DNA from: a virus
Lineage: Duplodnaviria > Heunggongvirae > Uroviricota > Caudoviricetes
IMG/VR virus record: IMGVR_UViG_3300042401_001499
Length of the DNA stretch: 64,000 bases
Strand: one strand, 5' to 3'
Of the stretch, positions 28,708 to 40,494 are shown piece after piece (the stretch's first letter is position 1; every line of letters starts with the position of its first letter). The translations under genes were made by a program, and so were the position numbers. Under the pieces are notes generated by a model. It saw only the letters and a program-made list of their open reading frames with translations, did not search any database and was not told the DNA's origin.

Positions 28708-29000
28708 AAAAATTAGTATTCAGATCCACAGATGAATTCTCAGAATTCTTTAAAGGAAAGAGCCCAGAGCTTACAAATGCAATAGTACATTCTATAAGAG
28801 AGGCTTTCATGTTTCATAAGAAGACAGCCAATCTATTTGAGATTACTTTTGATGAGAGTGATTCCGTATTTGAAATATCGCTATCGCATAAGGAATGGAT
28901 AATAGCATTAGAGAATTGTCTTTCTCACTATGAGGAGTGGGAGATGGGAGACGACGCAATAGATACATTTTTATTAATTAAAGAAATAAAAACATGGTAA
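28704..29000 (+). CDS. Hypothetical protein
   Basis: ORF, ATGA-coupled. Confidence 0.4.
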   Translation: MKKLVFRSTDEFSEFFKGKSPELTNAIVHSIREAFMFHKKTANLFEITFDESDSVFEISLSHKEWIIALENCLSHYEEWEMGDDAIDTFLLIKEIKTW

Positions 29001-29248
29001 AGCCTTATACTAAAACATTTACATGTGATATCACAGGAATTATAACGACCTACACTTACAACGGTGCTAGCATTGTAAATGGTATCATAAAAGCAGAGTT
29101 CGAATATCCTAAAGAATACTTAGATGAATTCAATAAAAAGGAAAAAAGACAGAGTAATCTTCCGAAAACAAAACAAATGTTCTTAAATCCTGCAACAGGA
29201 AAAGAAGTGGGATATTACAGAGCTAAGAATTTAGGCCTTGTAAAATAA
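28994..29248 (+). CDS. Hypothetical protein
   Basis: ORF only. Confidence 0.4.
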   Translation: MVKPYTKTFTCDITGIITTYTYNGASIVNGIIKAEFEYPKEYLDEFNKKEKRQSNLPKTKQMFLNPATGKEVGYYRAKNLGLVK

Positions 29249-29270
29249 ATTAAAAAAAGTTTGTATATTA

Positions 29271-29307
29271 GTTGCTAGAACGAATCTTTGTTCGTATATT
29301 TAGGTAT
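29271..29307 (+). promoter_or_regulatory. Conserved phage promoter, copy 3
   Basis: AGTTGCTAGAACGAATCTTTGTTCGTATATTTAGGTAT. Gene ATG at 29333. Confidence 0.6.
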
Positions 29308-29332
29308 AGAAATCAATTAAAAACAATAAGTT

Positions 29333-30157
29333 ATGTTAGCAAAATTCAACACAGGTTTAGATTCTTACCTTTCAAAAGATCAAGTAAAAGCTTTAGCACC
29401 AGTAGCATTCGCTACAGCACCAACAAGTGATAAAGTTAGTAAGGATTACTTACTAGTAAATACTGAGACTATCATCGATGACTTAGAAAAGTTAGGATGG
29501 CTTCCAGTTACAGCCTCTCAAAGAAAGGCTAGAAAGTCTGAAAAGGCTACAATCTTCTCCAAGCACATGGTATCCTTTCAGAATCCAGATCTTATGATCA
29601 AGGGTAAGAATGGTGATGATGCTTTTCCAAGAATCATTTTAACGAACTCCCATGATGGATTTAATTCTTTTCAGTTTAGAATTGGAATCTACAGATTGGT
29701 ATGTTCAAATGGATTGGTAGTAGCTGACGAGGAATTCTCAGCATTCAGAATACGTCACACAGGATATACCTTCGAAGAATTAAGAGGAGTAGTAGCACAA
29801 GCAGTAGCTGATCTTCCTAATAAGGTAATGATTTTAAATCAAATGCAGTTGAGAGAATTGTCTCCAGTAGAGCAAAGACAGTTAGCTATCGATGCAATGC
29901 AATTGAGAACAAATAGAATCGATGCTGTATGGGATGAAGAAACTATTCAAGACGTTTTAACTCCTATAAGAGATGCTGATAAAGGAAATGATCTTTGGAC
30001 AGTCTTTAATGTAATTCAAGAGAAGATTACTCAAGGAGGATATTCAGCAGCATTGAATGGTGCTAAGGTTAGAAAGGTTAGAAAGATCAAATCATTCGAG
30101 AAAGATCTTAAAGTGAATCAAGATTTATTCAAGCTAGCAGTAGCATTAGTAAACTAA
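29333..30157 (+). CDS. DUF932-family protein
   Basis: Size and the conserved stretch ILTNSHDGFNSFQFRIGIYRLVCSNGLV are typical of DUF932. Confidence 0.5.
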   Translation: MLAKFNTGLDSYLSKDQVKALAPVAFATAPTSDKVSKDYLLVNTETIIDDLEKLGWLPVTASQRKARKSEKATIFSKHMVSFQNPDLMIKGKNGDDAFPRIILTNSHDGFNSFQFRIGIYRLVCSNGLVVADEEFSAFRIRHTGYTFEELRGVVAQAVADLPNKVMILNQMQLRELSPVEQRQLAIDAMQLRTNRIDAVWDEETIQDVLTPIRDADKGNDLWTVFNVIQEKITQGGYSAALNGAKVRKVRKIKSFEKDLKVNQDLFKLAVALVN

Positions 30158-30396
30158 TGGATAGAGCAAAGTATATACAGATGAGAAAATCAGGCCAGTA
30201 TGATCTGGCTTGGTTTTACCAATACTTCCTGGAGAATAAGGATAAGAATAGAGTAACACCTCCCTTTGAAATATTTCAACAAGCCTTCAATATGTACTTC
30301 CAAATGAATGGAGCATTTATTCTAGAGCATATGGACAAGAAGATGGATGTATCAAAGATAGAAGATCAACAAGGAAATTTAATATACATAAACTAA
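30157..30396 (+). CDS. Hypothetical protein
   Basis: ORF only. Confidence 0.35.
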   Translation: MDRAKYIQMRKSGQYDLAWFYQYFLENKDKNRVTPPFEIFQQAFNMYFQMNGAFILEHMDKKMDVSKIEDQQGNLIYIN

Positions 30397-30398
30397 AC

Positions 30399-30638
30399 AT
30401 GGAAGGAAAAGTAAAAACACCGAAGGAATTAATGGCAGACTTAAAAGGAAATTACATTCAAGTAATTAAAAAGAATGGAAAGACTCACGATAAGCTTTAT
30501 AAAGATCCTCAGAGAGCAATCAGAGGAGTAGGAGGAGTAGAATATGTAAAGTACTTAAGAGAAGTTCTTAAAGAGCAAGTCAATTCAAGATACACAGAAG
30601 TAGATTCATTAACAGGAACACCAGAAAACGAATTATAA
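30399..30638 (+). CDS. Hypothetical protein
   Basis: ORF only. Confidence 0.35.
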   Translation: MEGKVKTPKELMADLKGNYIQVIKKNGKTHDKLYKDPQRAIRGVGGVEYVKYLREVLKEQVNSRYTEVDSLTGTPENEL

Positions 30639-30844
30639 TGGTAGAAAAAGTAGGATTAGCAGTAATGGCAGCTTTAGGAGTTGCAGTACTAACAGCAGTA
30701 TTATTGGCTTGGCCAACACAGTGGCTTTGGAATAACGCTCTAGTAGGAGCAGTGGATGGAATCAATCCAATAGGATTTTGGCAAGCATTAGGACTTACAT
30801 TCCTTTGCAATATATTATTCAAATCAACATCAAATAGTAAATAA
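30638..30844 (+). CDS. Small two-TM membrane protein
   Basis: Hydrophobic helices LAVMAALGVAVLTAVLLAW and GFWQALGLTFLCNILF. Confidence 0.4.
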   Translation: MVEKVGLAVMAALGVAVLTAVLLAWPTQWLWNNALVGAVDGINPIGFWQALGLTFLCNILFKSTSNSK

Positions 30845-30845
30845 G

Positions 30846-31133
30846 ATGAAGACAAAAACAATTTTAAAAGCAATTGGATTTTTTATAGGATGGTTGTTAT
30901 CATTCCAATTAATAGGTGTGGGAACATATCTAATGAATCAACCAAGCAATCTTTCATTTACATTTGGAGTATTAGCAGCACTATCAACAATTGGAGCCAT
31001 AGGGTACTTTGCATGGAACTTAGGAGGGTACATGGGTAAGTTATCAAAGGAGTATCTAGAGAGTAAAGAAGTTAAGCAAGAAGAGCCTGAGCAAGAAGTA
31101 GAAGAAGAAGTTAAACAAGTTAAACAAGAATAG
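30846..31133 (+). CDS. Small membrane protein with acidic C-terminal tail
   Basis: Two transmembrane helices and an EEPEQEVEEEVKQ tail. Confidence 0.4.
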   Translation: MKTKTILKAIGFFIGWLLSFQLIGVGTYLMNQPSNLSFTFGVLAALSTIGAIGYFAWNLGGYMGKLSKEYLESKEVKQEEPEQEVEEEVKQVKQE

Positions 31134-31135
31134 TT

Positions 31136-31498
31136 ATGGTATTTTTAATAGTAGTTTTAGTAGTACTGCTGCTTATATTCACAATAGTACTGGGAATATT
31201 TTTAGCAGAGAATGACGGTATATTAGATGACCAAACCGTAAAAGATTATCTAGATAAATTAGGAGATAGCTTTAACGTATACATCTCAGAATACACTCAC
31301 AGAATAGATCCAACATATTCAGCAAATGTAAAGAAGAGTATTGAACAATCTCCTGCAGTAATTCGATTAGTTTTCCCATATCACATAGAGTATGTAGGAG
31401 CAATTCCAGCATGGAGTAAATCAAAGCCTAGAATTGATGCAATGTTTGGACAAGGAACAAAAAGCAATTGGAAGAGAAAAAAATTAGGATTAGAGTAG
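31136..31498 (+). CDS. N-terminally anchored membrane protein
   Basis: Transmembrane helix VFLIVVLVVLLLIFTIVLGIFLA. Confidence 0.4.
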   Translation: MVFLIVVLVVLLLIFTIVLGIFLAENDGILDDQTVKDYLDKLGDSFNVYISEYTHRIDPTYSANVKKSIEQSPAVIRLVFPYHIEYVGAIPAWSKSKPRIDAMFGQGTKSNWKRKKLGLE

Positions 31499-31518
31499 AT
31501 TTATCGAAGTAAGTTTCG

Positions 31519-31531
31519 TATCTTTAAGTAT
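31519..31531 (+). promoter_or_regulatory. Variant promoter -7 box (TATCTTTAAGTAT)
   Basis: Degenerate copy of the conserved -7/leader core. Gene ATG at 31580. Confidence 0.35.
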
Positions 31532-31579
31532 TATTAAAAACAAATAAAAGTAAACAATTAAATTTAAACAAAAGTAGTT

Positions 31580-32437
31580 ATGAACAGAATTTTAGTAGTA
31601 GTAGCGTTGATCTTAGTAACATTAGGATTAGCAGGGTCATGTAAGATTGCCGATTCGGCAGAAGTAGCATTAGTGGTAGATCAAATTGGAACCAATAAAG
31701 GAGTTCCCAACATTGAAATGGCAAGTGGATTTATTTTCTATTTCCCGCCAACACAAGATGTATTTATGTATCCAACATCAGTTCAACACAAGGTATGGAC
31801 AGCATCAGTAGATGAAGACTCTCCAACAGATGAGCATATTGATGTAACGTCAGCAGATGGAGCGACATTTGGATTAGATGTATCTATTAACTTACAATTG
31901 CAGAGAGCAAGAGCAGCTGAATTATTTATCAAGTATAGAGTTGATATGGAAGATCTAATTAATTCAAGAGTAAGAACTATAGTTAGAAAAGAGTTACTAG
32001 ACAATGCAGTTAACTTCGCTTCAGATAGTTTATTACAGCATAGAAATATCTATGAAGGTAATGTAACAAGATCTTTAACAGCTTCTTTAGAGAAGGAAGG
32101 ATTCACATTAAATAACATTGCAATTCTTAAAATGCAATTGCCTAAATCATATAAAGCAGCTATTGAAAGAAAGATTGCAGTATTACAAGAGACAGCAACT
32201 ATTATCTCTCAGACAAAGCAAGCAGAGCAGACAGCATTAAAGAAAGTAGCATTAGCAAAAGGTAACTATGAAGCAGCACAATATGATGCTAAAACAAAAG
32301 AAATCTTATCTCAACCTAAGTTATTAGAATTGTACAAAGCAGAGACAGCTAGAATAAGAGCTACCAATGGTACATCAGAGTATGGATCTAATAACGTCTT
32401 TGGATCTACATCAGGAATACTCTTGAATAGAAACTAA
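31580..32437 (+). CDS. SPFH/band-7 (prohibitin/HflC-like) domain lipoprotein
   Basis: Signal peptide plus lipobox LAGSC, then an SPFH core with a C-terminal coiled coil. Confidence 0.65.
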   Translation: MNRILVVVALILVTLGLAGSCKIADSAEVALVVDQIGTNKGVPNIEMASGFIFYFPPTQDVFMYPTSVQHKVWTASVDEDSPTDEHIDVTSADGATFGLDVSINLQLQRARAAELFIKYRVDMEDLINSRVRTIVRKELLDNAVNFASDSLLQHRNIYEGNVTRSLTASLEKEGFTLNNIAILKMQLPKSYKAAIERKIAVLQETATIISQTKQAEQTALKKVALAKGNYEAAQYDAKTKEILSQPKLLELYKAETARIRATNGTSEYGSNNVFGSTSGILLNRN

Positions 32438-32457
32438 AATATATTAAAAATAAATGT

Positions 32458-32487
32458 AAAAAGGCTTGCTTATGTGAGCCTTTTTTC
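32458..32487 (+). terminator. Rho-independent terminator
   Basis: AGGCT - 10-nt loop - AGCCT followed by TTTTTT. Confidence 0.55.
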
Positions 32488-32488
32488 T

Positions 32489-32501
32489 TATCTTTAAGTA
32501 T
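32489..32501 (+). promoter_or_regulatory. Variant promoter -7 box (TATCTTTAAGTAT)
   Basis: Same variant as at 31519. Directly follows a terminator and precedes a small ORF. Confidence 0.35.
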
Positions 32502-32523
32502 TAGAAACAAACAAATAAAGGTT

Positions 32524-32700
32524 ATGAAAGTACAAGATTTAAAAGCAGGTGATAAGTTTAAGATGAATGGACTATCAGTAAGCGGTAAGCAGACTAAGGT
32601 TAAATGCGAGATGATTAGATACAATGGAATGGATAAGTACATTGTAGTATGCCAGGGTATTAGTATATTGGTAGATGGTACTGATGAAGTCTCTGTATAA
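32524..32700 (+). CDS. Small hypothetical protein (58 aa)
   Basis: ATG at 32524 to TAA at 32698-32700. Not in the track. Preceded by the variant promoter. Confidence 0.35.
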   Translation: MKVQDLKAGDKFKMNGLSVSGKQTKVKCEMIRYNGMDKYIVVCQGISILVDGTDEVSV

Positions 32701-32821
32701 CTAAAGGATAAGAGCTATGACAGAAGAAGAGTTACAGGCATTACTTGATGAGGAAGAGAAATACATCAATGAATGGAGAGATAGTTTAACACAGGAGCAG
32801 ATTGATTCGATTTAAAAACTT

Positions 32822-32894
32822 AGGGGAGGGGGCGCAAGACTACTCACCGAAGGTGTCACGCGCAATTTCTCCCAACCTTCCAGGTTGTTGGAGG
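32822..32894 (+). repeat. GC-rich conserved element, copy 2, plus adjacent bulged hairpin
   Basis: AGGGGAGGGGGCG ... CTCACCGAAGGTGTCACGCGCAA is identical to copy 1. It is followed by the stem TCTCCCAACC / GGTTGTTGGAG. Confidence 0.6.
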
Positions 32895-32915
32895 TAAAAT
32901 CTAAATAAAAACTAT

Positions 32916-33170
32916 ATGAAAACAATTTACAAGTACGAATTAAGATCACAAGATGCTAGTATAAAGCTTCCTCTAGGGGCAGAGATACTTACAGTACAGA
33001 TTCAAGACGGTAGGCCAATGATATGGGCTTTAGTAGATCCAGAGAATGTATTAGTGGATAGATTTATATCCATTGTAGGTACAGGATGGCAAGTAGAGGA
33101 CAATACGAAATATATTTGTACATTCATGGAAGGATATTTTGTGTGGCATGTATTTGAAATGATACAATAG
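32916..33170 (+). CDS. Hypothetical protein
   Basis: ORF only. Confidence 0.4.
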   Translation: MKTIYKYELRSQDASIKLPLGAEILTVQIQDGRPMIWALVDPENVLVDRFISIVGTGWQVEDNTKYICTFMEGYFVWHVFEMIQ

Positions 33171-33298
33171 TATGAAAGTAATCTATATGGAAAGAACTAT
33201 TGCTCTTATGTTACATGAAAGAGCCAAAGAGACAGAGATATTAATAGCCTCAGGAGAGGTTAAGAAGTCAGAACAAGGAGTTAATTATTTACTAACAA

Positions 33299-33493
33299 TT
33301 GAAGAGGATGGTGATAGTATTGTATCAGAAGAAGTATAAGGGGATGAAGGTCATGTTCAATTCTAGAAAAGGAAGCGGGATGATAATAGAGGGGATAGCC
33401 GTACAAGAGGTACCGGAACTAGATGTAGTAATTCTCAGAGATAGAGAAAACTTCTCACATGCAGTAAGTAAGAATTCAATAACAGAGATATGA
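33299..33493 (+). CDS. Hypothetical protein
   Basis: ORF only. Confidence 0.35.
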   Translation: MKRMVIVLYQKKYKGMKVMFNSRKGSGMIIEGIAVQEVPELDVVILRDRENFSHAVSKNSITEI

Positions 33494-33696
33494 AAAAGTT
33501 ACTTTGGATATTGTATTGGAGACTTACAGGAATGATAGGGTATACAATCGTCCTTAGCGATTGGTATGATCCGGAAACATTTACATTAAAGAGAAAGAAC
33601 AGTCACATGACCTTTCTCAAGATTCTAAGTAAGGAGGATGCAAACGGACATAGAAAAATAAAGGAAGTATTTAAAATACAAATAAGAAAGATATGA
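33490..33696 (+). CDS. Hypothetical protein
   Basis: ORF only. Confidence 0.35.
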   Translation: MKKLLWILYWRLTGMIGYTIVLSDWYDPETFTLKRKNSHMTFLKILSKEDANGHRKIKEVFKIQIRKI

Positions 33697-33842
33697 AAGA
33701 AATAACAATCAAAGATGTTTTTAATAAGGAGAAAGCCCAGGAAATAAAAACAACCTTAGATGAGATAAAAAGGCTTAGAAATGAAAATAAAATACTCAGA
33801 GAGGAATTAGAATACGAAAAAAGAAAGAACATTATAAAATAA
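33693..33842 (+). CDS. Small coiled-coil protein (49 aa)
   Basis: ATG at 33693 to TAA at 33840-33842. Fills a gap in an otherwise gap-free gene string. Not in the track. Confidence 0.3.
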   Translation: MKEITIKDVFNKEKAQEIKTTLDEIKRLRNENKILREELEYEKRKNIIK

Positions 33843-33847
33843 TAGAG

Positions 33848-34045
33848 ATGATAAAGACTAGAATGGTTATAATGAAAGGAGGTCATACAGAATATGATTT
33901 CGAAACAGAGATTATAAAGCCTAGAATAGGGGAGTTAATCTCCATAGGAGGTAATCATTATGAAGTAAAATTCATACAATACCTCTTTGATGATGAAAAA
34001 CAATTCAAACATATACTTGTAACAGCAATAAATGGAGGAAGATGA
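33848..34045 (+). CDS. Hypothetical protein
   Basis: ORF only. Confidence 0.35.
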   Translation: MIKTRMVIMKGGHTEYDFETEIIKPRIGELISIGGNHYEVKFIQYLFDDEKQFKHILVTAINGGR

Positions 34046-34302
34046 CAGTTAAAGAACTAATTGAAAGTCTAAGTAAGATAGAAGACAAGGACATAAGAGT
34101 AATAGTAAGTGGATATGAAGGAGGCGTAGATGATATAGTAATAGGAAACGGTATAGATAATAGTACTATAGTAATTCCAGCAATCATACATGTAGCCTTA
34201 GATGTAAATAAAGAATGGTATTACGGTAAACATAAAAGAGTAGATGATATGTATGGAGCGACTAATAGTGAATACCATATAGTAAAGGCAATTATACTAT
34301 AG
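34042..34302 (+). CDS. Hypothetical protein
   Basis: ORF only. Confidence 0.35.
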   Translation: MTVKELIESLSKIEDKDIRVIVSGYEGGVDDIVIGNGIDNSTIVIPAIIHVALDVNKEWYYGKHKRVDDMYGATNSEYHIVKAIIL

Positions 34303-34305
34303 AGA

Positions 34306-34396
34306 TACCCATTCATAGACCCGTTTACATACCCGTTTACATACCCAATTCGTTACCCATTTGTAACCCGTTTCTGTCCCCGTTTCATACCCATAC
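34306..34396 (+). repeat. Iteron array A: 8 copies of ACCC(G/A)TTT-like motif at ~12-bp phasing
   Basis: ACCC cores at 34307, 34319, 34331, 34343, 34355, 34366, 34379 and 34389. The region is non-coding. Confidence 0.7.
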
Positions 34397-34682
34397 ATAC
34401 ATGCATGTCACGTACGGAAGATACCTGGAGAGACATAGAGAGAACTACTGAGATACAATAAGAAAAGGTAAGACTTTGATTAAACATAAAGAGTAGTAAA
34501 ACCCTTTGAAGAGTATAAAGACATATAGTACTAGGTATGAAAAGGTACTGTAAAGGATATACGATGTGTAAGAAAAGAATAAAGGCACGGTAAAATAAAG
34601 TAAGGAAAAATGTGGGGACTGTGTCTCCTTATTACTTTTTTTTCTATATAGAGATAATCTATTGTCTATAGTGTAAGGAGAT

Positions 34683-34867
34683 ACCCGATTTCGATACCCA
34701 TTTGGTACCCGTTCCTATAGGCGACAGGGAGAGAGTGTAAGGAAAAACCCGTTCTAGCTACCCGTTTGTAACCCGTCCTGTTACCCGACCTAGTAACCCG
34801 TTTGGAAACCCCTCTAGTGACCCGGTTGAGACCCGTTTCTTTCCCCGTTTTCTACCCCCTTCGGGGG
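34683..34867 (+). repeat. Iteron array B: ~13 copies of (T/A)ACCCG(T)TT motif at 11-13-bp phasing, ending in a CCCCC-TTC-GGGGG hairpin
   Basis: ACCC cores at 34683, 34696, 34707, 34747, 34760, 34771, 34783, 34796, 34808, 34820, 34831, 34843 and 34854. Confidence 0.7.
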
Positions 34868-34884
34868 AAATAACTTAAAATAAA

Positions 34885-34921
34885 GTTGCCTAACATAACT
34901 ATTGTTCGTATCTTTAGGTAT
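34885..34921 (+). promoter_or_regulatory. Conserved phage promoter, copy 4 (TATCTTTAGGTAT variant)
   Basis: AGTTGCCTAACATAACTATTGTTCGTATCTTTAGGTAT immediately right of the iterons. Confidence 0.55.
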
Positions 34922-34942
34922 AAAGATAAAAAAACAGACACT

Positions 34943-35155
34943 ATGAGAACAATGAGAACAGAGAAGGTAGCAGAATGGTTAGGAAATCAAGGAATGGTTG
35001 AGGCTAAGGCTAACTTACTCAGCACCTTTGGTCATATGGAGAATATTGACTACGGAGGAATAGAAGGTTTCTTGTATATCTATTATAAAGACTTTGCTGG
35101 GGATGTTTTCCTCTCTATGCAGTGTCAGGTTTCTACAACTCTAACCTTTGATTAA
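34943..35155 (+). CDS. Hypothetical protein (start moved to ATG 34943)
   Basis: Track ORF 34886 starts inside the promoter. First ATG after the leader is in frame. Confidence 0.4.
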   Translation: MRTMRTEKVAEWLGNQGMVEAKANLLSTFGHMENIDYGGIEGFLYIYYKDFAGDVFLSMQCQVSTTLTFD

Positions 35156-35269
35156 ACACTATGAAGACAATTCAATTTACCATGCAAGAGAGATGGGCTG
35201 CCTCACGGCATACCGTACAGAAGTCTAAGAAGACCTACAACAGGAAGGAGAAGCACTCCTCAAAGAAAC

Positions 35270-35297
35270 AGGGGCCTCAAAAGGGTCCCTTTTATTA
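35270..35297 (+). terminator. Rho-independent terminator
   Basis: AGGGGCC - loop - GGTCCCT (7 bp including one G-U) followed by TTTTATTA. Confidence 0.45.
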
Positions 35298-35465
35298 TAC
35301 CTAAAGCTTTGCTTTAAGTGCCAGGACCAGTTAAAGCATCACTTTAAGTTAAAGCATCACTTTAAGTGGGTATGAAACAGTAGTGTGTATTACCTACTAC
35401 AGAATATAAGGTACCGGCCCGTCTACTCTTCCGACTCTCTTTCAAGATCAGGCCCCTTATCCTTC
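35298..35465 (-). ncRNA. Putative non-coding RNA transcribed leftward from the minus-strand promoter
   Basis: A full-consensus promoter on the minus strand points into ~170 nt. That stretch has no ORF longer than 3 codons on either strand and contains the 18-mer tandem repeat. Confidence 0.3.
35331..35366. repeat. Perfect tandem duplication of an 18-mer (TTAAAGCATCACTTTAAG x2)
   Basis: Exact direct repeat. Lies inside the antisense transcript region. Confidence 0.8.
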
Positions 35466-35469
35466 TAAC

Positions 35470-35507
35470 ATACCTAAAGATACGAACATAACTCCTCTCT
35501 AGCAACT
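35470..35507 (-). promoter_or_regulatory. Conserved phage promoter, minus-strand copy (only one in the window)
   Basis: The reverse complement reads AGTTGCTAGAGAGGAGTTATGTTCGTATCTTTAGGTATG. Confidence 0.55.
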
Positions 35508-35556
35508 ATTTTTACATTTATTTTGTTATTAATAATGAATATAAATAACGTACAGG

Positions 35557-35593
35557 AGTTGCCTCCTATGTACTTATTCCTTATCTTTAGGTA
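35557..35593 (+). promoter_or_regulatory. Conserved phage promoter, copy 6
   Basis: AGTTGCC ... CTTATCTTTAGGTATCAATAATTAAAACA. Gene ATG at 35618. Confidence 0.55.
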
Positions 35594-35617
35594 TCAATAA
35601 TTAAAACAATAAAGGTC

Positions 35618-35872
35618 ATGACTAAATCAGAAACATTCAAATTACATTTTCCAGAGTTTAAAGGAGTGGTACATTTCTTCACCTCAGATTGTGAGCAATT
35701 AAACTTTATAGATGTACCTAATGATACAGTTGAATTCACTACTTCTTTTACATTGAGTTGTGGATGTTGTTCTGACTTTGATCAGAGAGAGGGATCTCTA
35801 AGTCATATCATGGATCTTATGAGTGGAGGTGAATTTGTAGAACTTTTATCAATAGTAAATAATTTAAAATAA
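35618..35872 (+). CDS. Hypothetical small protein
   Basis: ORF behind a promoter copy. Confidence 0.45.
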   Translation: MTKSETFKLHFPEFKGVVHFFTSDCEQLNFIDVPNDTVEFTTSFTLSCGCCSDFDQREGSLSHIMDLMSGGEFVELLSIVNNLK

Positions 35873-35873
35873 A

Positions 35874-35910
35874 GTTGCTTAATTAAATTATAGTTCATAT
35901 ATTTAGGTAT
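35874..35910 (+). promoter_or_regulatory. Conserved phage promoter, copy 7
   Basis: AAATAAAGTTGC ... TAGTTCATATATTTAGGTAT. Confidence 0.6.
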
Positions 35911-35933
35911 CAATAATTAAAACGACATATATT

Positions 35934-36149
35934 ATGAATGCAATTTACAAATGTGAGGATTTTAAAATCGAAAATGGAGTATTAACAATATGGGGAGCTG
36001 AGCTAATAGGAATGGCTGCATCTGTTAATGATTTCAATAAGGTATATGAAATATTTTGTAAGGGTAAAGGAATCCTTCCTAATGGATTAATATGTCCAGC
36101 ATTATATTGTGAACAAAGGGAAATTAATATTGTGGTATTTGAAAAATAA
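35934..36149 (+). CDS. Hypothetical small protein
   Basis: ORF behind a promoter copy. Confidence 0.45.
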   Translation: MNAIYKCEDFKIENGVLTIWGAELIGMAASVNDFNKVYEIFCKGKGILPNGLICPALYCEQREINIVVFEK

Positions 36150-36150
36150 A

Positions 36151-36187
36151 GTTGCTCGTTTAAATTAAAGTTCATATATTTAGGTAT
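36151..36187 (+). promoter_or_regulatory. Conserved phage promoter, copy 8
   Basis: Consensus copy. Confidence 0.6.
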
Positions 36188-36210
36188 CAATAATTAAAAC
36201 GACATATATC

Positions 36211-36606
36211 ATGGTAAACAAAATTAAAGGATTAACAGTAGTAGACTTCATCGGAGGTAGAAAAGGTATCTTCCAGGCCATTACAAAAGTACCAGCAGGC
36301 TTTATGATAGCCTATGAGATAGGTACAGAATTACCTTCTCTTGATAGATGGAAGAAAGGAGCTCTTCAGACTATCCAATTTAAAGCTGAAGGAACTAGCC
36401 ATTGGACAACAGTATTTGCTAAGAAAGGCACAAAGGTAATCTTATTGGATCAGTCTTTGGCTGAGACTATAGAGGTAGGAACAATCAATTCTTTATTCTA
36501 CAATACAAATCTAATGGATCACAATCAGTATCAAGCTGTAAAGGCTAAGACATGGGCAGATAAAGTATTTGTAGTGAATGAAAATAATTTAGAAAAAGTT
36601 GTATAA
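36211..36606 (+). CDS. Hypothetical protein
   Basis: ORF behind a promoter copy. Confidence 0.45.
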   Translation: MVNKIKGLTVVDFIGGRKGIFQAITKVPAGFMIAYEIGTELPSLDRWKKGALQTIQFKAEGTSHWTTVFAKKGTKVILLDQSLAETIEVGTINSLFYNTNLMDHNQYQAVKAKTWADKVFVVNENNLEKVV

Positions 36607-36609
36607 ATA

Positions 36610-36646
36610 GTTGCTCGTTTAAATTATAGTTCATATATTTAGGTAT
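36610..36646 (+). promoter_or_regulatory. Conserved phage promoter, copy 9
   Basis: Consensus copy. Confidence 0.6.
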
Positions 36647-36668
36647 CAATAATTAAAACAATATAGAA

Positions 36669-36905
36669 ATGGAAAATCAAGAAATTAAAGATTATGTTTT
36701 AGATTTTATTTTTGATGATATGGATGTATTTGAAGATTGTACTTCAAAGAAATCTTTCATTGAACTTGCTATTACTATTTTAGATGCAAATCTTTTAGCT
36801 GAGTTTGATTTCAAGGGGGAAGATTTAAGCCAAGATCTCCAATATGAATTCTTAGAAGGGGTAAAAGTTGAATGGAAAATATTTAAAAAATTAAATGGAT
36901 TATAG
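36669..36905 (+). CDS. Hypothetical acidic small protein
   Basis: ORF behind a promoter copy. Confidence 0.45.
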   Translation: MENQEIKDYVLDFIFDDMDVFEDCTSKKSFIELAITILDANLLAEFDFKGEDLSQDLQYEFLEGVKVEWKIFKKLNGL

Positions 36906-36941
36906 TTGTTTAATTGAATCTTAGTTCGTATATTTAGGTAT
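36905..36941 (+). promoter_or_regulatory. Conserved phage promoter, copy 10
   Basis: Consensus copy with GTTGT at -33. Confidence 0.55.
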
Positions 36942-36964
36942 CAATAATTAAAACAATATAAACT

Positions 36965-37246
36965 ATGGGTTATTCTTCAATGTTATTAGGGAAAGGTTTT
37001 GACCAGCCTTATCGTTCAGTTAAAGAAATTGTTAGTTTTCTTCAAACTTCAAATTACCAAACAGAATCTCAAATACAAGAAAAAGTATTTGGTTACTTCA
37101 GAAATTCAACTTGGGAATCAAATAAGAAATATGCCGACATGTTGAGAAGAGGTTTGGAAAAAGGACTGTATAAGAGAATCCTATGGAAAAAGAAATCTGA
37201 TAGTAGAAATCTATACTACTATTATGTTGTAAATAAATCAAAATAA
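36965..37246 (+). CDS. Hypothetical protein
   Basis: ORF behind a promoter copy. Confidence 0.45.
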   Translation: MGYSSMLLGKGFDQPYRSVKEIVSFLQTSNYQTESQIQEKVFGYFRNSTWESNKKYADMLRRGLEKGLYKRILWKKKSDSRNLYYYYVVNKSK

Positions 37247-37247
37247 A

Positions 37248-37284
37248 GTTGCTCGTTTAAATTTTTATTCATATATTTAGGTAT
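37248..37284 (+). promoter_or_regulatory. Conserved phage promoter, copy 11
   Basis: Consensus copy. Confidence 0.6.
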
Positions 37285-37307
37285 CAATAATTAAAACATA
37301 TAAAAAC

Positions 37308-37580
37308 ATGGGAAATTTATTATCGACTGCAAAACAAGTATTAATTGACGGGGCTATTGAATTGTATGAAATGAGAAGATCAGATTTAGATTTTGATGTT
37401 CTTTCATATGAAAATCATTATCGAAATCTTGGAAGTTTAATTTTTCAAATCGATTCTTATAATTCATTAGGAGATATCTTAAATGATATGGAAAATGATA
37501 ATCTTCAGGAATTGGGATATTTCGGAGCTGATGAGTTTTTAATTGAAGAATTTTTAAAAGCTGTTAGAGAAAGTATTTAA
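37308..37580 (+). CDS. Hypothetical protein
   Basis: ORF behind a promoter copy. Confidence 0.45.
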   Translation: MGNLLSTAKQVLIDGAIELYEMRRSDLDFDVLSYENHYRNLGSLIFQIDSYNSLGDILNDMENDNLQELGYFGADEFLIEEFLKAVRESI

Positions 37581-37587
37581 AAAAATA

Positions 37588-37624
37588 GTTGCCTCTTCGG
37601 AGGCAATTTACTATCTTTAGGTAT
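37588..37624 (+). promoter_or_regulatory. Conserved phage promoter, copy 12, with embedded UUCG-tetraloop hairpin
   Basis: GTTGCCTCTTCGGAGGC ... TATCTTTAGGTATCATTAATTAAAACA. GCCTC-TTCG-GAGGC at 37591-37604. Confidence 0.55.
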
Positions 37625-37647
37625 CATTAATTAAAACAATATAAGTT

Positions 37648-37746
37648 ATGGAAGATGCAAATAAATTTTACGAGTGGATGTTAAAGATTAAAAGTATTCA
37701 TTTGGCTGACAATAATAAGATGGCTAAGGCTTTCGAAAAGTTTTCT
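37648..37746 (+). CDS. Tiny ORF (32 aa) behind a promoter copy
   Basis: Only ORF between this promoter and the tRNA-like elements. May be non-functional. Confidence 0.2.
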
Positions 37747-37761
37747 GAGAAATAAATAATA

Positions 37762-37864
37762 TTTGTTGTGTGGCGAAATTGGTATACGCTAAATCACCTC
37801 AAGTAGAATAGCCGGTAGACGTGGGTGACGTGCAAAGGCGTGAGGGTTCGAGTCCCTTCACAAC
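37762..37864 (+). other. tRNA-like element 1 (acceptor, D-arm and T-arm recognisable; 71-nt central segment with no canonical anticodon arm)
   Basis: TGTTGTG ... GCG-AAATTGGTATA-CGC ... GAGGG-TTCGAGT-CCCTT-CACAACA-T. The 7-bp acceptor pairs perfectly and the T-loop is canonical GTTCGAGTC. Confidence 0.35.
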
Positions 37865-37914
37865 ATCAAAATAATTAGCTTAGTCTGCATTAATTATTTG
37901 GATCTGCAGGTCCA

Positions 37915-37975
37915 GGAGAGGTCTGGTTAAAGTGGGCAGTGCCAACACAGGAAGTTCGAATCTTCCCTCTCCACA
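37915..37975 (+). other. tRNA-like element 2 (T-arm GGAAG-TTCGAAT-CTTCC plus 6-7-bp acceptor; about 61 nt, too short for a canonical tRNA)
   Basis: AGGAGAG ... CTG-GTTAAAGTGGG-CAG ... GGAAGTTCGAATCTTCC-CTCTCCA-C. Confidence 0.3.
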
Positions 37976-38003
37976 AAATAAATTAAAAATAAATAATAAA
38001 ATA

Positions 38004-38040
38004 GTTGTTAGATTAAATTAATGTTCGTATATTTAGGTAT
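38004..38040 (+). promoter_or_regulatory. Conserved phage promoter, copy 13
   Basis: Consensus copy. Confidence 0.6.
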
Positions 38041-38063
38041 CAATAATTAAAACATATAACATT

Positions 38064-38840
38064 ATGACAAGAATTCAAATTTTAGAAGATCAAAAAGCAA
38101 TCTTCGTAGCACAGAAAGAAGTATTAGAAAACAAAAGAGGAGACATTTATGTTAGAGAGCAACAAGCAATCTCAGATGCTTTGCTTCCTTTTTTTTATGA
38201 ATTTTCGGAAGAAGTAGAAATTGAAGTAACTAGAGGATCTGTTTATTTTAAAATGGCTCATCCAGAAGTAACTTACAAGAAAGAATTATTTAATCTTTAT
38301 TTAAGAGAGAATTGGGACGATAGTTTAGCTAAATCTTTTAAAGGAGTTGATCTTTCTTATTATACTACTCAAACAAAAGGGGAGTCAAAATGGGAATTAA
38401 AGAGATTGCAATTGTTAGGAAAGTTAGCTGAGATTGTAGATGAGTTTCAACAAAAAATGGTTTATGTTGTAAACGAAGCTGTATTTCCTTTTAAAGAAGA
38501 ATTCAAAGCAGTTTTTGCTCAAATGGAATTAGTAGGGAAAGCTATTAGAGAATTAGACGTTAAGATTGCATCCTTTGAAAAGGAAGTGATTGAATGGGAA
38601 TTGAGATATGCAAAGATTGAATTTGCAAAAGCAAGAGAGGTTCAAATGAAGTTTAATTATTCTCCAAGAATTGTATCTTTGAAATTATTTGAGTTCTCTA
38701 AATCCGGAAAGAAAGCTACTGCAATCTTTGAATGGGAAAAAGGAAGAGAATCTAGAGAAGAAAATGTAAGCGTTAGTTCCATAGTTGATCAAGTATTTGG
38801 ACTACGTAAAGATATTGTTCAGCACACTTTAGCTGAATAG
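38064..38840 (+). CDS. Hypothetical protein (258 aa), coiled-coil rich
   Basis: Largest ORF of the small-gene array. Confidence 0.5.
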   Translation: MTRIQILEDQKAIFVAQKEVLENKRGDIYVREQQAISDALLPFFYEFSEEVEIEVTRGSVYFKMAHPEVTYKKELFNLYLRENWDDSLAKSFKGVDLSYYTTQTKGESKWELKRLQLLGKLAEIVDEFQQKMVYVVNEAVFPFKEEFKAVFAQMELVGKAIRELDVKIASFEKEVIEWELRYAKIEFAKAREVQMKFNYSPRIVSLKLFEFSKSGKKATAIFEWEKGRESREENVSVSSIVDQVFGLRKDIVQHTLAE

Positions 38841-38860
38841 TTTTTAATTATTGATCGAAG

Positions 38861-38886
38861 AAAGGGCTCCTATTAGGGGCCTTTTT
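38861..38886 (+). terminator. Imperfect GC hairpin plus T-run (terminator-like)
   Basis: AAAGGGCTCCTATTAGGGGCCTTTTT. Confidence 0.35.
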
Positions 38887-38909
38887 GGGTTAAAATAGTT
38901 TGTGAAATA

Positions 38910-38946
38910 GTTGCTAGTTACAATCTTTGTTCGTATATTTAGGTAT
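38910..38946 (+). promoter_or_regulatory. Conserved phage promoter, copy 14
   Basis: Consensus copy. Confidence 0.6.
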
Positions 38947-38967
38947 CAATAATTAAATAGATATATT

Positions 38968-39150
38968 ATGAAAGAAGTTAGAGAGTACTTTGATTTGAAT
39001 TATGGTTATGTTGATCTAGGAGGAATAGATGATCATGTATTAGAGAGTTTTTTATCTCGATCTTATTTGATTGACTTAAGTTTTATAAGAAAGATGGATT
39101 GTTTATACGATTATATTCTTTCTCAGGATTTATGTAATGTTCAAGAATAA
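38968..39150 (+). CDS. Hypothetical small protein
   Basis: ORF behind a promoter copy. Confidence 0.4.
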   Translation: MKEVREYFDLNYGYVDLGGIDDHVLESFLSRSYLIDLSFIRKMDCLYDYILSQDLCNVQE

Positions 39151-39176
39151 TTAATAATAATTTAAAAAATAAGACT

Positions 39177-39530
39177 ATGACTAAATTATTCAGAGATGTA
39201 AACTACTACATCGTACAAGCTTCTAATAGCACACAGAGAGAATTTGAATTGGACTTCGCAGATGTCATAGAGGTCTATGATACAAATTCCATAACTTTAA
39301 CTACTGAAGATAAAAGAGAGGTAGTTATTAGTTGGGATGAAAAAGGTTATTTTAAATCTTACTTCATACAGGAAGAAACAATACTAATGAGATCACATCC
39401 GGGAATGGTAGAAGAAGTAATCTCTATGTTAAGACATATGGAGATAGATGGAGAAACAATGGAGTACATTCTAGATAAAGTAGGAATGACAGATCAAATG
39501 TTAAAACAACTCTCAGGGAAATACTTATAA
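39177..39530 (+). CDS. Hypothetical protein
   Basis: ORF with no dedicated promoter copy; probably co-transcribed. Confidence 0.4.
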   Translation: MTKLFRDVNYYIVQASNSTQREFELDFADVIEVYDTNSITLTTEDKREVVISWDEKGYFKSYFIQEETILMRSHPGMVEEVISMLRHMEIDGETMEYILDKVGMTDQMLKQLSGKYL

Positions 39531-39535
39531 AAAAA

Positions 39536-39572
39536 GTTGCTAGTTACAAAGTTAGTTCATATATTTAGGTAT
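39536..39572 (+). promoter_or_regulatory. Conserved phage promoter, copy 15
   Basis: Consensus copy. Confidence 0.6.
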
Positions 39573-39595
39573 CAATAATTAAAACAATATAAATC

Positions 39596-39832
39596 ATGGC
39601 TACATTAATCAAAGATCAAAAAGAAGTTACATTTGCACAAGGAGAGAGAGTTCAATTCAGAATGTTAGATTCTAAAGCTCCTGGAGATAATTACTCTCCA
39701 CCACAAAAGACAGTTTATGGAACAGTTGGAAATATAAACAAAGTTTCAATGATTGTTCAAGGAGTGGATGGAAATCTATATAGAGTAATGAAGAATGAAG
39801 TTAAAAAATATGTTGATCCTTTTGCAAAATAA
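39596..39832 (+). CDS. Hypothetical small protein
   Basis: ORF behind a promoter copy. Confidence 0.45.
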   Translation: MATLIKDQKEVTFAQGERVQFRMLDSKAPGDNYSPPQKTVYGTVGNINKVSMIVQGVDGNLYRVMKNEVKKYVDPFAK

Positions 39833-39833
39833 A

Positions 39834-39870
39834 GTTGCTAGTTACAAAGTTAGTTCATATATTTAGGTAT
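39834..39870 (+). promoter_or_regulatory. Conserved phage promoter, copy 16
   Basis: Consensus copy. Confidence 0.6.
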
Positions 39871-39890
39871 CAATAATTAAAACAAACAAT

Positions 39891-40070
39891 ATGAAAAATT
39901 CAATTAGATTACAAAGTTCAATTTACATTTACGATGTAGAGTTTGATGAAGTTCAATATGAAGTTCAAGTAACAGATGGAGTAATAAGTGCTATGTATAG
40001 ATCAGATGGCTTCAATATTTCAGGGGTAGAGGGAGAAGACCTTAGGGATTTTATCTACAATAATAAGTAA
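39891..40070 (+). CDS. Small hypothetical protein (59 aa)
   Basis: ATG at 39891 to TAA at 40068-40070. Sits behind a promoter copy. Not in the track. Confidence 0.4.
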   Translation: MKNSIRLQSSIYIYDVEFDEVQYEVQVTDGVISAMYRSDGFNISGVEGEDLRDFIYNNK

Positions 40071-40077
40071 AAATAAA

Positions 40078-40114
40078 GTTGCTAGTTACAATTAAAGTTC
40101 ATATATTTAGGTAT
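40078..40114 (+). promoter_or_regulatory. Conserved phage promoter, copy 17 (extended leader)
   Basis: Consensus copy. The leader carries an extra AATTAATCAATCAATAATTAAAAACA. Confidence 0.55.
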
Positions 40115-40150
40115 CAAAATTAATCAATCAATAATTAAAAACAAAACATT

Positions 40151-40489
40151 ATGAAAAAAGTAAATGTATTAGAGTCAGTTCAAAATTCAGTTAGTTCAAT
40201 CTTTAGTAAAGAAGATGTAATCAATCTTATCAATTCAATTGAAGGAGAAGGAGGAAGAGTTATTACAGTTACAGAAATTGGAGCAGCTATTGATAGATTA
40301 GTTGATAGCTTGGAAAATAATGAAGATGAAATAGTTGATACAGATTCAGTAGAGTTCAGTATTGCTTATGATAATCGAATTGAAGTTGATAGGGTAAGAG
40401 TAAACTTTGATTACATCAGAGAAGCTCTTGAAAATACTTTTATGGACTTTGGTGAAGCTGAAGAAGAAGTTACAGAAAATGAATTGTAA
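40151..40489 (+). CDS. Acidic hypothetical protein
   Basis: ORF behind a promoter copy. Strongly D/E-rich. Confidence 0.45.
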   Translation: MKKVNVLESVQNSVSSIFSKEDVINLINSIEGEGGRVITVTEIGAAIDRLVDSLENNEDEIVDTDSVEFSIAYDNRIEVDRVRVNFDYIREALENTFMDFGEAEEEVTENEL

Positions 40490-40494
40490 ATAAA

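What the first reader, a model, noticed from the sequence alone, without database searches (positions are those of the whole stretch)
34303..34880. Iteron-rich ORF-free segment: candidate replication origin
About 21 copies of ACCCG(T)TT-like 8-mers lie with 11-13-bp (one helical turn) phasing in two arrays (34306-34396 and 34683-34867). They bracket a ~280-bp core containing a T9 tract, TATATAGAGATAATCTATTGTCTATAG and CATGCATGTCACGTACG palindromes. The segment is terminated by a CCCCC-TTC-GGGGG hairpin. It is distinctly GC-richer than its surroundings and contains no ORF on either strand. Phased iterons plus an AT-rich unwinding element are the classic origin architecture. No obvious initiator gene is annotated nearby.
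Basis: seen in the sequence. Interest (0 to 1): 0.75.

Follow-up and report, generated by a model that had tools for sequence, protein, structure and literature searches.

The report
Conserved double repeat-array element in phage
A unique non-coding stretch in a T4-like Flavobacterium phage carries 21 copies of ACCCGTT(T), one every 11-13 bases, in two arrays around a conserved 280-base core; 33 related phages keep it, so it is almost certainly a docking platform for one DNA-binding protein, perhaps the replication origin, but its role cannot be settled from sequence.

Summary
Window 34303-34396 holds 8 co-oriented ACCCGTT(T)-type units and 34680-34860 holds 13, spaced 11-13 bp. They flank a 283-bp core with no conserved ORF. 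The window is a close relative of Flavobacterium phage immuto, a 160-kb T4-like myovirus. The same array-core-array layout occurs once per genome in immuto and in 33 distinct relatives. Unit number varies (5-9 left, 9-15 right) while the motif, orientation and spacing are kept. The core is as conserved as nearby conserved genes, although the genes immediately flanking it are swapped between phages. It is not a structured RNA and not coding, and it has no internal promoter of the phage's two recognisable classes.

The origin reading remains the single most likely one (about 0.35) but is unproven:
- No initiator gene or DNA-binding domain was found nearby.
- The units are much shorter and closer together than classical iterons.
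- The core is not AT-rich overall; only one 40-bp stretch melts easily.
- GC skew is uninformative, because the whole genome is transcribed from one strand.

The closest anatomical analogues are the T7 concatemer junction, split plasmid and prophage centromeres (tubC, parC), and iteron origins. I rate it a new variant of a known kind, of moderate interest.

The parts
34303..34396 (+). Left array: 8 co-oriented units (G/A/T)ACCC(G/A)TT(T/C), steps of 11-12 bp. It starts directly after the stop codon of the upstream ORF. C/G = 3.6.
   Evidence: relatives have 5-9 units
34392..34416 (.). Alternating purine-pyrimidine, palindromic tract (CATACATACATGCATGTCACGTACG). Relatives have TATACATACGTA(T/C) at the same place.
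34425..34445 (+). Conserved polypurine block CTGGAGAGACATAGAGAGAAC. Its GGAGAGACA part is an inverted match to TGTGTCTCC at 34620-34628.
   Evidence: I14
34508..34571 (+). Most conserved block of the core. It includes the near-invariant AGTACT-N2-GTA-N2-AAAAGGTAYT (34527-34549), which I used as the family anchor.
34606..34643 (+). Conserved GGAAAAATG(T/A)GG...TGTGTCTCC followed by a T-run (T8 at 34636-34643). There is a weak hairpin at 34614-34628, but its pairing is not conserved in relatives.
34626..34673 (.). The only easily melted stretch (98th percentile). It carries the CTATATAG and ATAGA...TCTAT palindromes and abuts the right array.
34680..34860 (+). Right array: 3 + 10 co-oriented units with steps of 11-13 bp, interrupted at 34715-34746 by CCTATAGGCGACAGGGAGAGAGTGTAAGGAAAA. 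This is the most stable duplex of the window. C/G = 1.4.
   Evidence: relatives have 9-15 units
34855..34867 (.). CCCCC-TTC-GGGGG hairpin with no T-run on either strand. It is present in about 60% of relatives.
34885..34922 (+). Early, host-type promoter GTTGCC-N18-TATCTTTAGGTATA. It is the first of 15 such promoters in the next 8.6 kb.
35161..35304 (+). 47-aa very basic ORF (MKTIQFTMQERWAASRH...). It is the only gene strictly linked to the element, starting 575-651 bp right of the anchor in all 24 relatives with enough flank. Function unknown.

Best explanation
The element is a cis-acting docking platform on double-stranded DNA. One sequence-specific protein, probably phage-encoded, early and not yet identified, binds each ACCCGTT(T) unit head-to-tail. 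It coats about 95 bp on the left and about 180 bp on the right. Because the units repeat every ~11.9 bp rather than every 10.5 bp, successive proteins spiral around the helix. The two stiff, GC-rich coated arrays therefore clamp and strain the conserved 280-bp core between them. The most likely purpose is initiation of phage DNA replication: the complex would open the one easily melted stretch next to the right array (34626-34665), or stabilise an RNA-DNA hybrid on the purine-rich core, and so give the phage's DnaB-type helicase, DnaG-type primase and family-A polymerase an entry point.

Shown: the repeats, their phasing and orientation, that the element occurs once per genome, that it is conserved in 33 relatives, and that it is non-coding and not a structured RNA.

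Inferred: that a protein binds, that binding is to DNA rather than RNA, and the link to replication.
For: - Enrichment and strand bias of the motif.
- A logo from 277 units in 15 relatives puts nearly all information in A-C-C-C-G-T-T. Spacing is 11 bp (27%), 12 bp (55%) or 13 bp (16%). This mix excludes a reading frame and fits a binding site of one major groove.
- Arrays gain and lose whole units between relatives, while motif and orientation are kept.
- There is only one such cluster in the 160-kb immuto genome.
- The core is 84% identical to immuto. The polymerase gene is 89% identical, and syntenic early genes are 72-86% identical or not alignable. The genes directly flanking the element are swapped between phages.
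- No structured RNA: RNAalifold gives -10.5 to -11.5 kcal/mol over 400 columns with no compensatory pairs, and Rfam gives nothing even at E <= 1.
- No conserved ORF.
- The arrays are the most stable duplex of the window. An easily melted 40-mer lies at the core/right-array junction.
- A-tracts in the window's core are phased at about 11 bp, the 99th percentile for the window.
- The phage encodes its own replisome: DnaB-type helicase, DnaG-type primase, family-A polymerase, SSB and a RecA-like protein.
Against: - No initiator or DNA-binding domain was found in the 20 nearest ORFs.
- Unit size and spacing are unlike classical iterons.
- The core has average AT content.
- There are no DnaA boxes.
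- A-tract phasing is significant in only 7 of 25 relatives.
- GC skew gives no signal, because the genome is unidirectional.
- No similar iterons occur in 72,556 plasmids.
- T4-like phages can replicate largely by recombination and from promoter-type origins that have no iterons (review PMC3016281).
- The same anatomy is found in elements that are not origins: the T7 junction arrays and split centromeres (PMC6009700).
Confidence: 0.35

Rival explanations
1. A non-replicative nucleoprotein complex: a transcriptional boundary or silencer, or a centromere-like or genome-anchoring site. A small protein coats the two arrays, as ParR does on parC or TubR on the split tubC. This would insulate the upstream early operon from the dense early-promoter block, regulate the promoter that abuts the right array, or tether the phage DNA.
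For: - Short head-to-tail repeats of 10-12 bp, split into two blocks, are the hallmark of type II and type III centromeres, which also repress the adjacent promoter. tubC in prophage c-st is described as a 350-500-bp non-coding split site that forms a double ring (PMC6009700).
- The right array ends 25 bp before an early promoter.
- The element sits inside the early region, with three early-type promoters (27116-29272), the last heading a 5-kb promoter-free operon, on its left and 15 promoters on its right.
- A small, strictly linked basic ORF lies just downstream.
Against: - No ParR, TubR, ParM, TubZ or ParA/ParB homologue was found among the neighbours or in the immuto annotation.
- The gene directly downstream of the arrays is not conserved.
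- A lytic T4-like phage has no obvious need for partition.
- The 280-bp conserved core is far larger than a promoter and has no recognisable promoter.
- The 47-aa protein gives no confident fold.
Confidence: 0.25
2. A packaging or terminus structure of the T7 type. The core would be a short direct terminal repeat, collapsed to one copy in assemblies. The arrays would be the equivalents of T7's SRR and SRL short-repeat arrays at the concatemer junction, so that the early genes enter the cell first.
For: - I read T7 directly. Co-oriented CCTAAAG 7-mers at 12-13 bp (positions 175-338) lie immediately right of the 160-bp terminal repeat. A looser array lies to its left (39621-39706). The early promoters follow. 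This is the same order, unit size and spacing as here.
- The whole immuto genome is transcribed in one direction, as in T7.
- The dense early-promoter block starts right after the right array.
Against: - The large terminase of immuto is of the T4 gp17 type (E 2.5e-38 to 3ezk/3cpe; Terminase_6N). The head genes are T4-like. From established knowledge this goes with headful packaging and no fixed ends.
- Four (immuto) or three (window) early-type promoters lie upstream of the element.
- True metagenome contig ends inside the core number 6 against 3.0 expected, and their positions are scattered.
- The deposited genome was opened at an arbitrary gene.
Confidence: 0.12
3. An RNA-level function. When transcribed from the sense strand, the arrays present CCC every ~12 nt. 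They would act as strong Rho-loading (rut-like) sites, or as a sponge for an RNA-binding protein, terminating read-through from the upstream early operon.
For: - All units lie on the sense strand.
- The left array starts at the stop codon of the upstream ORF, with no intervening terminator in the window.
- The left array is C-rich and G-poor (C/G 3.6).
- From established knowledge of Rho's primary binding sites, 11-13-nt spacing of pyrimidine-C dimers over about 70-80 nt is what a Rho hexamer prefers.
Against: - The right array is not G-poor (C/G 1.4, G 21%).
- Conservation of A at position 0 and of G-T-T is far more specific than Rho requires.
- Immuto has a hairpin plus T-run terminator just upstream of its left array, so little transcript would reach it.
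- Constant orientation is expected anyway in a family without inversions.
Confidence: 0.1
4. The core encodes a small RNA or micro-protein, and the arrays are merely its regulatory flanks.
For: - The core is strongly conserved.
- A 9-bp hairpin at 34523-34551 needs G-U pairs, which work only on the + strand.
- An 18-aa ORF, MKRYC..., is present in 6 relatives.
Against: - No promoter of either recognisable class lies inside the element.
- The consensus fold is very weak and has no compensatory changes.
- No Rfam match.
- The micro-ORF's ATG is lost in L016, L028, L048, L127 and L017.
- The minus-strand ORF is absent in 9 of 22 relatives, and there is no codon periodicity.
Confidence: 0.06

Closest known systems
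T7 concatemer junction (SRR array - 160-bp terminal repeat - SRL array - early promoters)
   Same: Both have two co-oriented arrays of a 7-8-nt motif on a 12-13-bp spacing around a unique segment of a few hundred bp. In both the right array is longer and more regular, strong early host-type promoters follow directly, and the genome is transcribed in one direction.
   Different: The motif is unrelated (CCTAAAG against ACCCGTT). T7's central segment is its terminal repeat and itself carries the motif, whereas this core carries none. This phage has a T4-type terminase and head, and early promoters also lie upstream. To my knowledge the function of the T7 arrays is itself unknown.
Split centromeres of type II and type III partition systems (R1 parC; tubC of pBtoxis and prophage c-st)
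   Same: Both are blocks of short head-to-tail repeats with a period of about one helical turn plus 1-2 bp, split in two around a spacer. They lie in a non-coding stretch of several hundred bp next to a promoter and are coated cooperatively by a small protein into a ring or solenoid (PMC6009700; the parC details are from my own knowledge).
   Different: There is no ParR/TubR-like gene and no motor gene here. The spacer is 280 bp, conserved and promoter-less, rather than a promoter of about 40 bp. The host is a lytic phage.
Iteron-type replication origins (lambda ori, plasmids P1/F/RK2/R6K) and T4 oriE
   Same: Both have multiple direct repeats next to an easily melted stretch. They occur once per genome, in an early-expressed region. 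[quoted passage not shown]
   Different: Classical iterons are 17-22 bp on a spacing of about 22 bp, with an adjacent rep gene; neither holds here. The T4 oriE repeats lie inside gene 5 and follow the 24-nt period of its beta-helix coding repeat, whereas these are non-coding.

Membership tests
Iteron-type replication origin | Cluster of direct repeats that are initiator-binding sites | tested here: inconclusive
   The repeat cluster is present and conserved. Binding cannot be tested.
Iteron-type replication origin | Repeat units of about 17-22 bp spaced about two helical turns apart | tested here: not met
   The informative core is 7-8 bp and the spacing is 11-13 bp.
Iteron-type replication origin | Adjacent AT-rich DNA-unwinding element | tested here: inconclusive
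   One 40-bp window (34626-34665) is at the 98th percentile for ease of melting. The core overall has GC 0.325, the window average.
Iteron-type replication origin | Cognate initiator (Rep) gene next to or overlapping the iterons | tested here: not met
   Pfam and PHROGs on the 20 nearest ORFs show no Rep or DNA-binding domain. A novel small protein cannot be excluded.
Iteron-type replication origin | Replication starts here | not testable with these tools
   GC skew is uninformative because the genome is transcribed from one strand and the skew has no sign change.
T7-type concatemer junction / terminal repeat | Co-oriented short-repeat arrays on both sides of a unique segment, followed by early promoters | tested here: met
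   against T7 read.
T7-type concatemer junction / terminal repeat | The central segment is duplicated at the physical ends of virion DNA | not testable with these tools
   No reads are available. Contig ends show no clustering (6 observed against 3.0 expected, scattered).
T7-type concatemer junction / terminal repeat | Terminase of a fixed-end (short terminal repeat) type | tested here: not met
   TerL matches T4 gp17 (E 2.5e-38) and Terminase_6N.
Type II/III plasmid or prophage centromere (parC, tubC) | Blocks of short direct repeats split into two sites | tested here: met
   comparator described in PMC6009700.
Type II/III plasmid or prophage centromere (parC, tubC) | Sits directly upstream of the centromere-binding protein gene and its motor gene (ParR-ParM or TubR-TubZ) | tested here: not met
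   The downstream gene is not conserved. No such domains are nearby or in the immuto annotation.
Rho-loading (rut) site | C-rich, G-poor, unstructured transcript with pyrimidine-C dimers about every 12 nt | tested here: inconclusive
   The left array fits (C/G 3.6). The right array does not (C/G 1.4).
Structured non-coding RNA | Conserved secondary structure supported by compensatory changes, or a match to a known family | tested here: not met

The most novel reading that the evidence does not exclude
The element and its strictly linked neighbours form a self-contained 1.3-kb module (34303-35606): double array, core, promoter, a variable small ORF, the 47-aa basic protein, and a conserved antisense-promoter region with palindromic 18-bp repeats. 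This would be a new kind of phage genome-handling device. A tiny basic protein, or another orphan early protein, would polymerise on 12-bp head-to-tail sites and organise or fire the genome of a lytic T4-like phage. It would work like a T7-style junction or a centromere-like wrap, but with no terminal repeat and no motor, and with no sequence or protein homology to any described system.
Probability: 0.12. Interest if true: 0.75.

Novelty: new variant of a known kind. Interest (0 to 1): 0.5.

Why it matters
Replication origins, packaging signals and other cis-elements are essentially unmapped in phages of Bacteroidota and in most environmental T4-like phages. This work gives a sharply defined, unique and deeply conserved candidate, with 33 natural variants that already show what is constrained: the 7-nt motif, its orientation, its 11-13-bp spacing and a 60-bp central block. 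One isolate, immuto on Flavobacterium sp. LMO8, is cultivable, so the element can be tested directly. The work also corrects the public annotation, in which two small 'hypothetical proteins' (immuto26A_121 and _122) are called across the arrays. Finally, it supplies a second, unrelated example of the puzzling T7-type short-repeat arrays, which could help to explain them.

Tried and rejected
- **GC skew as an origin test.** Rejected as uninformative. All immuto genes are on one strand and the skew is positive throughout.
- **Contig ends as evidence for genome termini.** The ends of loci from the viral collection turned out to be storage cuts, not contig ends: L020 and L133 are one contig, and L007 is internal to immuto. 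Using only metagenome contigs returned whole, ends in the core number 6 against 3.0 expected and are scattered.
- **18-aa micro-ORF MKRYC...** Its start codon is lost in 5 relatives.
- **Minus-strand ORF MFNQS...** Absent in 9 of 22 relatives, with no codon periodicity. It is an artefact of the pyrimidine-rich strand.
- **Intrinsic terminator at 34614-34645.** The pairing is not conserved in relatives and 7 nt separate the stem from the T-run.
- **Structured RNA.** Rejected.
- **T4 oriE 'iterons' as a homologue.** They follow the coding repeat of gene 5.
- **Scans for the array pattern elsewhere.** The viral hits outside this family are coding tetrapeptide repeats such as EPVx and PVEA. The bacterial-genome hits are chance matches, plus 11-bp ACCCGTTAATC tandem repeats in Bacteroidales intergenic regions next to housekeeping genes (ClpB, SRP54, Maf). 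No link to the phage element was shown.
- **Plasmid search.** Nothing found.
- **The 47-aa linked protein as the binder.** Its homologues occur only in this phage family, and AlphaFold gives pLDDT 63 with no fold.
- **DnaA boxes.** None within 2 mismatches.
- **A-tract curvature.** Strong in the window, not general in the family.
- **Literature.** No paper describing this element or the genome ends of immuto was found.

Full report
**What is there.**
- Exact ACCCGTT occurs 11 times in the 64-kb window on both strands. Eight copies lie in 34319-34837, all on the + strand. The expectation for the whole window is 1.7, and none of 100 shuffles reaches 11.
- All ten + strand copies of CCCGTT lie in the region.
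- Listing the units gives 8 units at 34307-34396, 3 at 34683-34714 and 10 at 34747-34860. Steps between units are 11, 12 or 13 bp.
- The two arrays flank a 283-bp core (34397-34679).
- The arrays have GC 0.44 and 0.51 and are pyrimidine-rich on the + strand. The core has the window's average GC (0.325 against 0.342) and is purine-rich (63%).
- The T tract is T8, not T9.
- There is no tRNA and no Rfam match, even at E <= 1.

**Whose genome it is.**
The window is a close relative of Flavobacterium phage vB_FspM_immuto.
- Immuto is a 160,410-bp myovirus. Its family-A DNA polymerase is 93.8% identical in protein and 89% in DNA to the window's.
- Immuto has T4-type head, portal, baseplate and terminase genes and its own replisome. 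Essentially every gene is on one strand.
- GC skew is positive along the whole genome and never changes sign.
- A motif GTTGCC-N18-20-TATCTTTAGGTATA, close to the Bacteroidota host promoter consensus (my own knowledge), occurs 18 times on the + strand of the window between 27116 and 43527. It occurs 14 times in the matching part of immuto.
- The element lies inside this early region. Three such promoters lie at 27116-29272, and the last of them heads a 5-kb stretch without one that runs up to the element. A run of 15 promoters in 8.6 kb starts 25 bp after the right array.

**Conservation.**
- Immuto has the same layout at 66.3-66.9 kb: left array, conserved core, right array, C-rich hairpin, early promoter.
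- It is the only cluster of the motif in immuto's 160 kb.
- Pattern scans of viral and metagenome collections, using a near-invariant 23-mer of the core and the array pattern itself, recovered the element in 42 contigs. These fall into 33 clusters at 97% identity.
- A logo of 277 units from 15 distinct elements puts almost all information in A-C-C-C-G-T-T, followed by T or C. Spacing is 11 bp in 27% of steps, 12 bp in 55%, 13 bp in 16% and 14 bp in 1%. Left arrays have 5-9 units and right arrays 9-15, always in the same orientation.
- Arrays differ between relatives by whole units, and the spacers between motifs vary freely. This is how arrays of binding sites evolve.
- The core is 84% identical between the window and immuto. 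Syntenic early genes are 72-86% identical or not alignable.
- The genes immediately flanking the element are swapped between phages. The upstream 86-aa ORF is missing in at least six relatives, and the downstream ORF is not conserved.
- The element is therefore an independently maintained module in a mosaic region.

**What it is not.**
- *Not coding.* The 11/12/13 spacing mix cannot keep a reading frame. An 18-aa ORF in the core loses its start codon in five relatives. A minus-strand ORF of 30-57 aa seen in 13 of 22 relatives is absent in the other nine, including immuto. Substitutions show no three-base periodicity. The two small genes annotated across the arrays in the immuto record are therefore very likely spurious.
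- *Not a structured RNA.* The consensus fold is only -10.5 to -11.5 kcal/mol over about 400 columns, with no compensatory pair.
- *No recognisable internal promoter.* It contains neither the early promoter motif nor the TATTTATA motif that is enriched upstream of non-early genes.
- *No terminator.* The terminator-like hairpin at 34614-34628 is not conserved as a pairing.
- *No DnaA boxes.* No DnaA-box-like site is present within two mismatches.

**Physical features of the DNA.**
- The arrays are the most stable 100-bp duplexes of the whole window. The only easily melted stretch is 34626-34665, at the 98th percentile, where the T8 and CTATATAG abut the right array.
- A-tracts in the window's core are phased at about 11 bp, the 99th percentile for the window. 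This reaches p < 0.05 in only 7 of 25 relatives, so I give it little weight.
- Conserved sub-blocks of the core, from left to right:
  - an alternating purine-pyrimidine, palindromic tract next to the left array;
  - a polypurine block GGAGAGACATAGAGAGA, whose inverted copy TGTGTCTCC lies about 180 bp to the right;
  - a 60-bp near-invariant centre containing AGTACT-N11-GGTACT.

**Candidate binder.**
- None of the 20 nearest ORFs has a DNA-binding or initiator domain in Pfam or PHROGs. Hits were only DUF932, an SPFH domain and DUF7352, together with sub-threshold matches I disregard.
- The only gene strictly linked to the element is a 47-aa very basic ORF (35161-35304). It starts 575-651 bp right of the anchor in all 24 relatives with enough flank.
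- This ORF is under purifying selection. It has homologues only in this phage family, and its structure model has no confident fold.
- The binder therefore remains unknown.

**Explanations weighed.**
*Shared inference.* The high-information asymmetric 7-mer, the one-per-turn spacing and the head-to-tail order all point to one conclusion. One protein binds cooperatively to many sites on the DNA and coats both arrays.

*Origin of replication (my estimate 0.35).* This is the best single guess for what the complex does. In its favour:
- the element occurs once per genome;
- it lies in the early region;
- an easily melted stretch adjoins an array;
- the phage has its own helicase, primase and polymerase.

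Against it:
- the units are unlike classical iterons;
- no initiator was found;
- the core is not AT-rich.

T4-type phages are also known to use promoter-dependent R-loop origins and recombination (PMC3016281). The T4 oriE '12-nt iterons' mentioned there lie inside gene 5 and follow its 24-nt coding repeat, so they are a poor precedent.

*Regulatory or centromere-like coat (0.25).* The layout matches split centromeres such as tubC of prophage c-st (PMC6009700). However, no cognate protein or motor gene is present.

*T7-type junction (0.12).* Reading T7 itself showed a strikingly similar order. A loose array comes first, then the 160-bp terminal repeat, then twelve co-oriented CCTAAAG units at 12-13 bp, then the early promoters. 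Against a fixed terminus here:
- the terminase is of the T4 gp17 type;
- early promoters also lie upstream of the element;
- true contig ends do not cluster in the core.

*RNA-level, rut-like arrays (0.10).* The left array fits (C/G 3.6) but the right does not (C/G 1.4). Rho binding would also not explain the conserved A, G and TT.

*Small RNA or peptide in the core (0.06).* The evidence against this is given under 'What it is not'.

**Novelty.**
- No paper describing the element was found.
- Nothing similar exists in the plasmid collection.
- Outside this phage family, the array pattern hits only coding tetrapeptide repeats and unrelated tandem repeats.
- The element belongs to a known general kind, phased short-repeat protein-binding arrays. 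Its particular anatomy is not described elsewhere: two co-oriented 12-bp-period arrays around a large, conserved, promoter-less core in a T4-like phage.
- I rate it a new variant of a known kind. It is of moderate interest and directly testable in the cultivable immuto-LMO8 system.

Noticed in passing
window 35290-35560 (immuto 67.4-67.66 kb): A second conserved ORF-poor stretch lies right after the 47-aa gene. It holds 2-4 tandem 18-bp units (AGTTAAAGCATCACTTTA), each a small palindrome TTAAAG-N5-CTTTAA. It also holds the only minus-strand copy of the early promoter motif (35505 to 35470), which faces a hairpin at 35270-35290. This may be a minus-strand RNA of about 170 nt, or an operator for a dimeric protein. 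The RNA fold is not significant (z = -1.55).
   Followed up: partly
window 35161-35304: A 47-aa, lysine/arginine-rich ORF (MKTIQFTMQERWAAS.H.V.KSKK.Y.RK.KH...) sits at a fixed distance from the element in all 24 relatives with enough flank. Homologues occur only in this phage family. There is no Pfam or PHROG match and no confident fold.
   Followed up: yes
window 27116-43527; immuto 60.9-76.2 kb: There are 18 + strand copies (14 in immuto) of a 40-bp early promoter, GTTGCC-N18-20-TATCTTTAGGTATA, often preceded by an A-rich tract. Each precedes a small ORF, giving a dense promoter-rich early region.
   Followed up: partly
L001 3895-3945, L003, L006 (twice); absent from the window: A 45-bp hairpin-forming insert (ATCGTAGATTGAGAAACAGAGTATCTCACCTACTCTGTCTTCGAC) lies between the left array and the core in some relatives. 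In L006 a second copy lies inside the core. It looks like a small mobile hairpin element.
   Followed up: no
immuto record MW353175, 66350-66445 (-) and 66811-66933 (+): Two annotated 'hypothetical protein' genes (immuto26A_121 and _122) lie across the left and right arrays. Given the variable unit spacing and the lack of conservation, they are very likely false gene calls.
   Followed up: partly
immuto genome, upstream regions of non-early genes: TATTTAT(A) is enriched upstream of non-early genes (20 of 54 intergenic gaps against 1.7 expected). It is a candidate middle or late promoter element.
   Followed up: no
immuto 18.6-37 kb; the window starts near immuto 35 kb: The relative carries DpdA plus QueC, QueD, QueE, QueF and FolE, which implies 7-deazaguanine modification of its DNA. 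Its DNA polymerase is most similar to those of T5-like phages (26-27% identity), while its head and terminase are T4-like.
   Followed up: no
L152, L162, L165, L172, L184, L211, L239, L248 (Bacteroidales genomes): Tandem 11-bp repeats ACCCG(T/A)TAATC, in 3-7 copies, lie in intergenic regions next to unrelated housekeeping genes (ClpB, SRP54, Maf, an ABC-2 permease). This looks like a dispersed short-repeat family of Bacteroidales. No link to the phage element was shown.
   Followed up: partly
window 34534-34549 against 34380-34391, 34324-34345: Read on the minus strand, the invariant centre of the core (GTACCTTTTCATACCTAG) resembles two adjacent degenerate repeat units (ACCT instead of ACCCG). 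It matches CCGTTTCATACC of the left array at 11 of 12 positions. This could be chance from base composition, or an inverted operator-like site.
   Followed up: no
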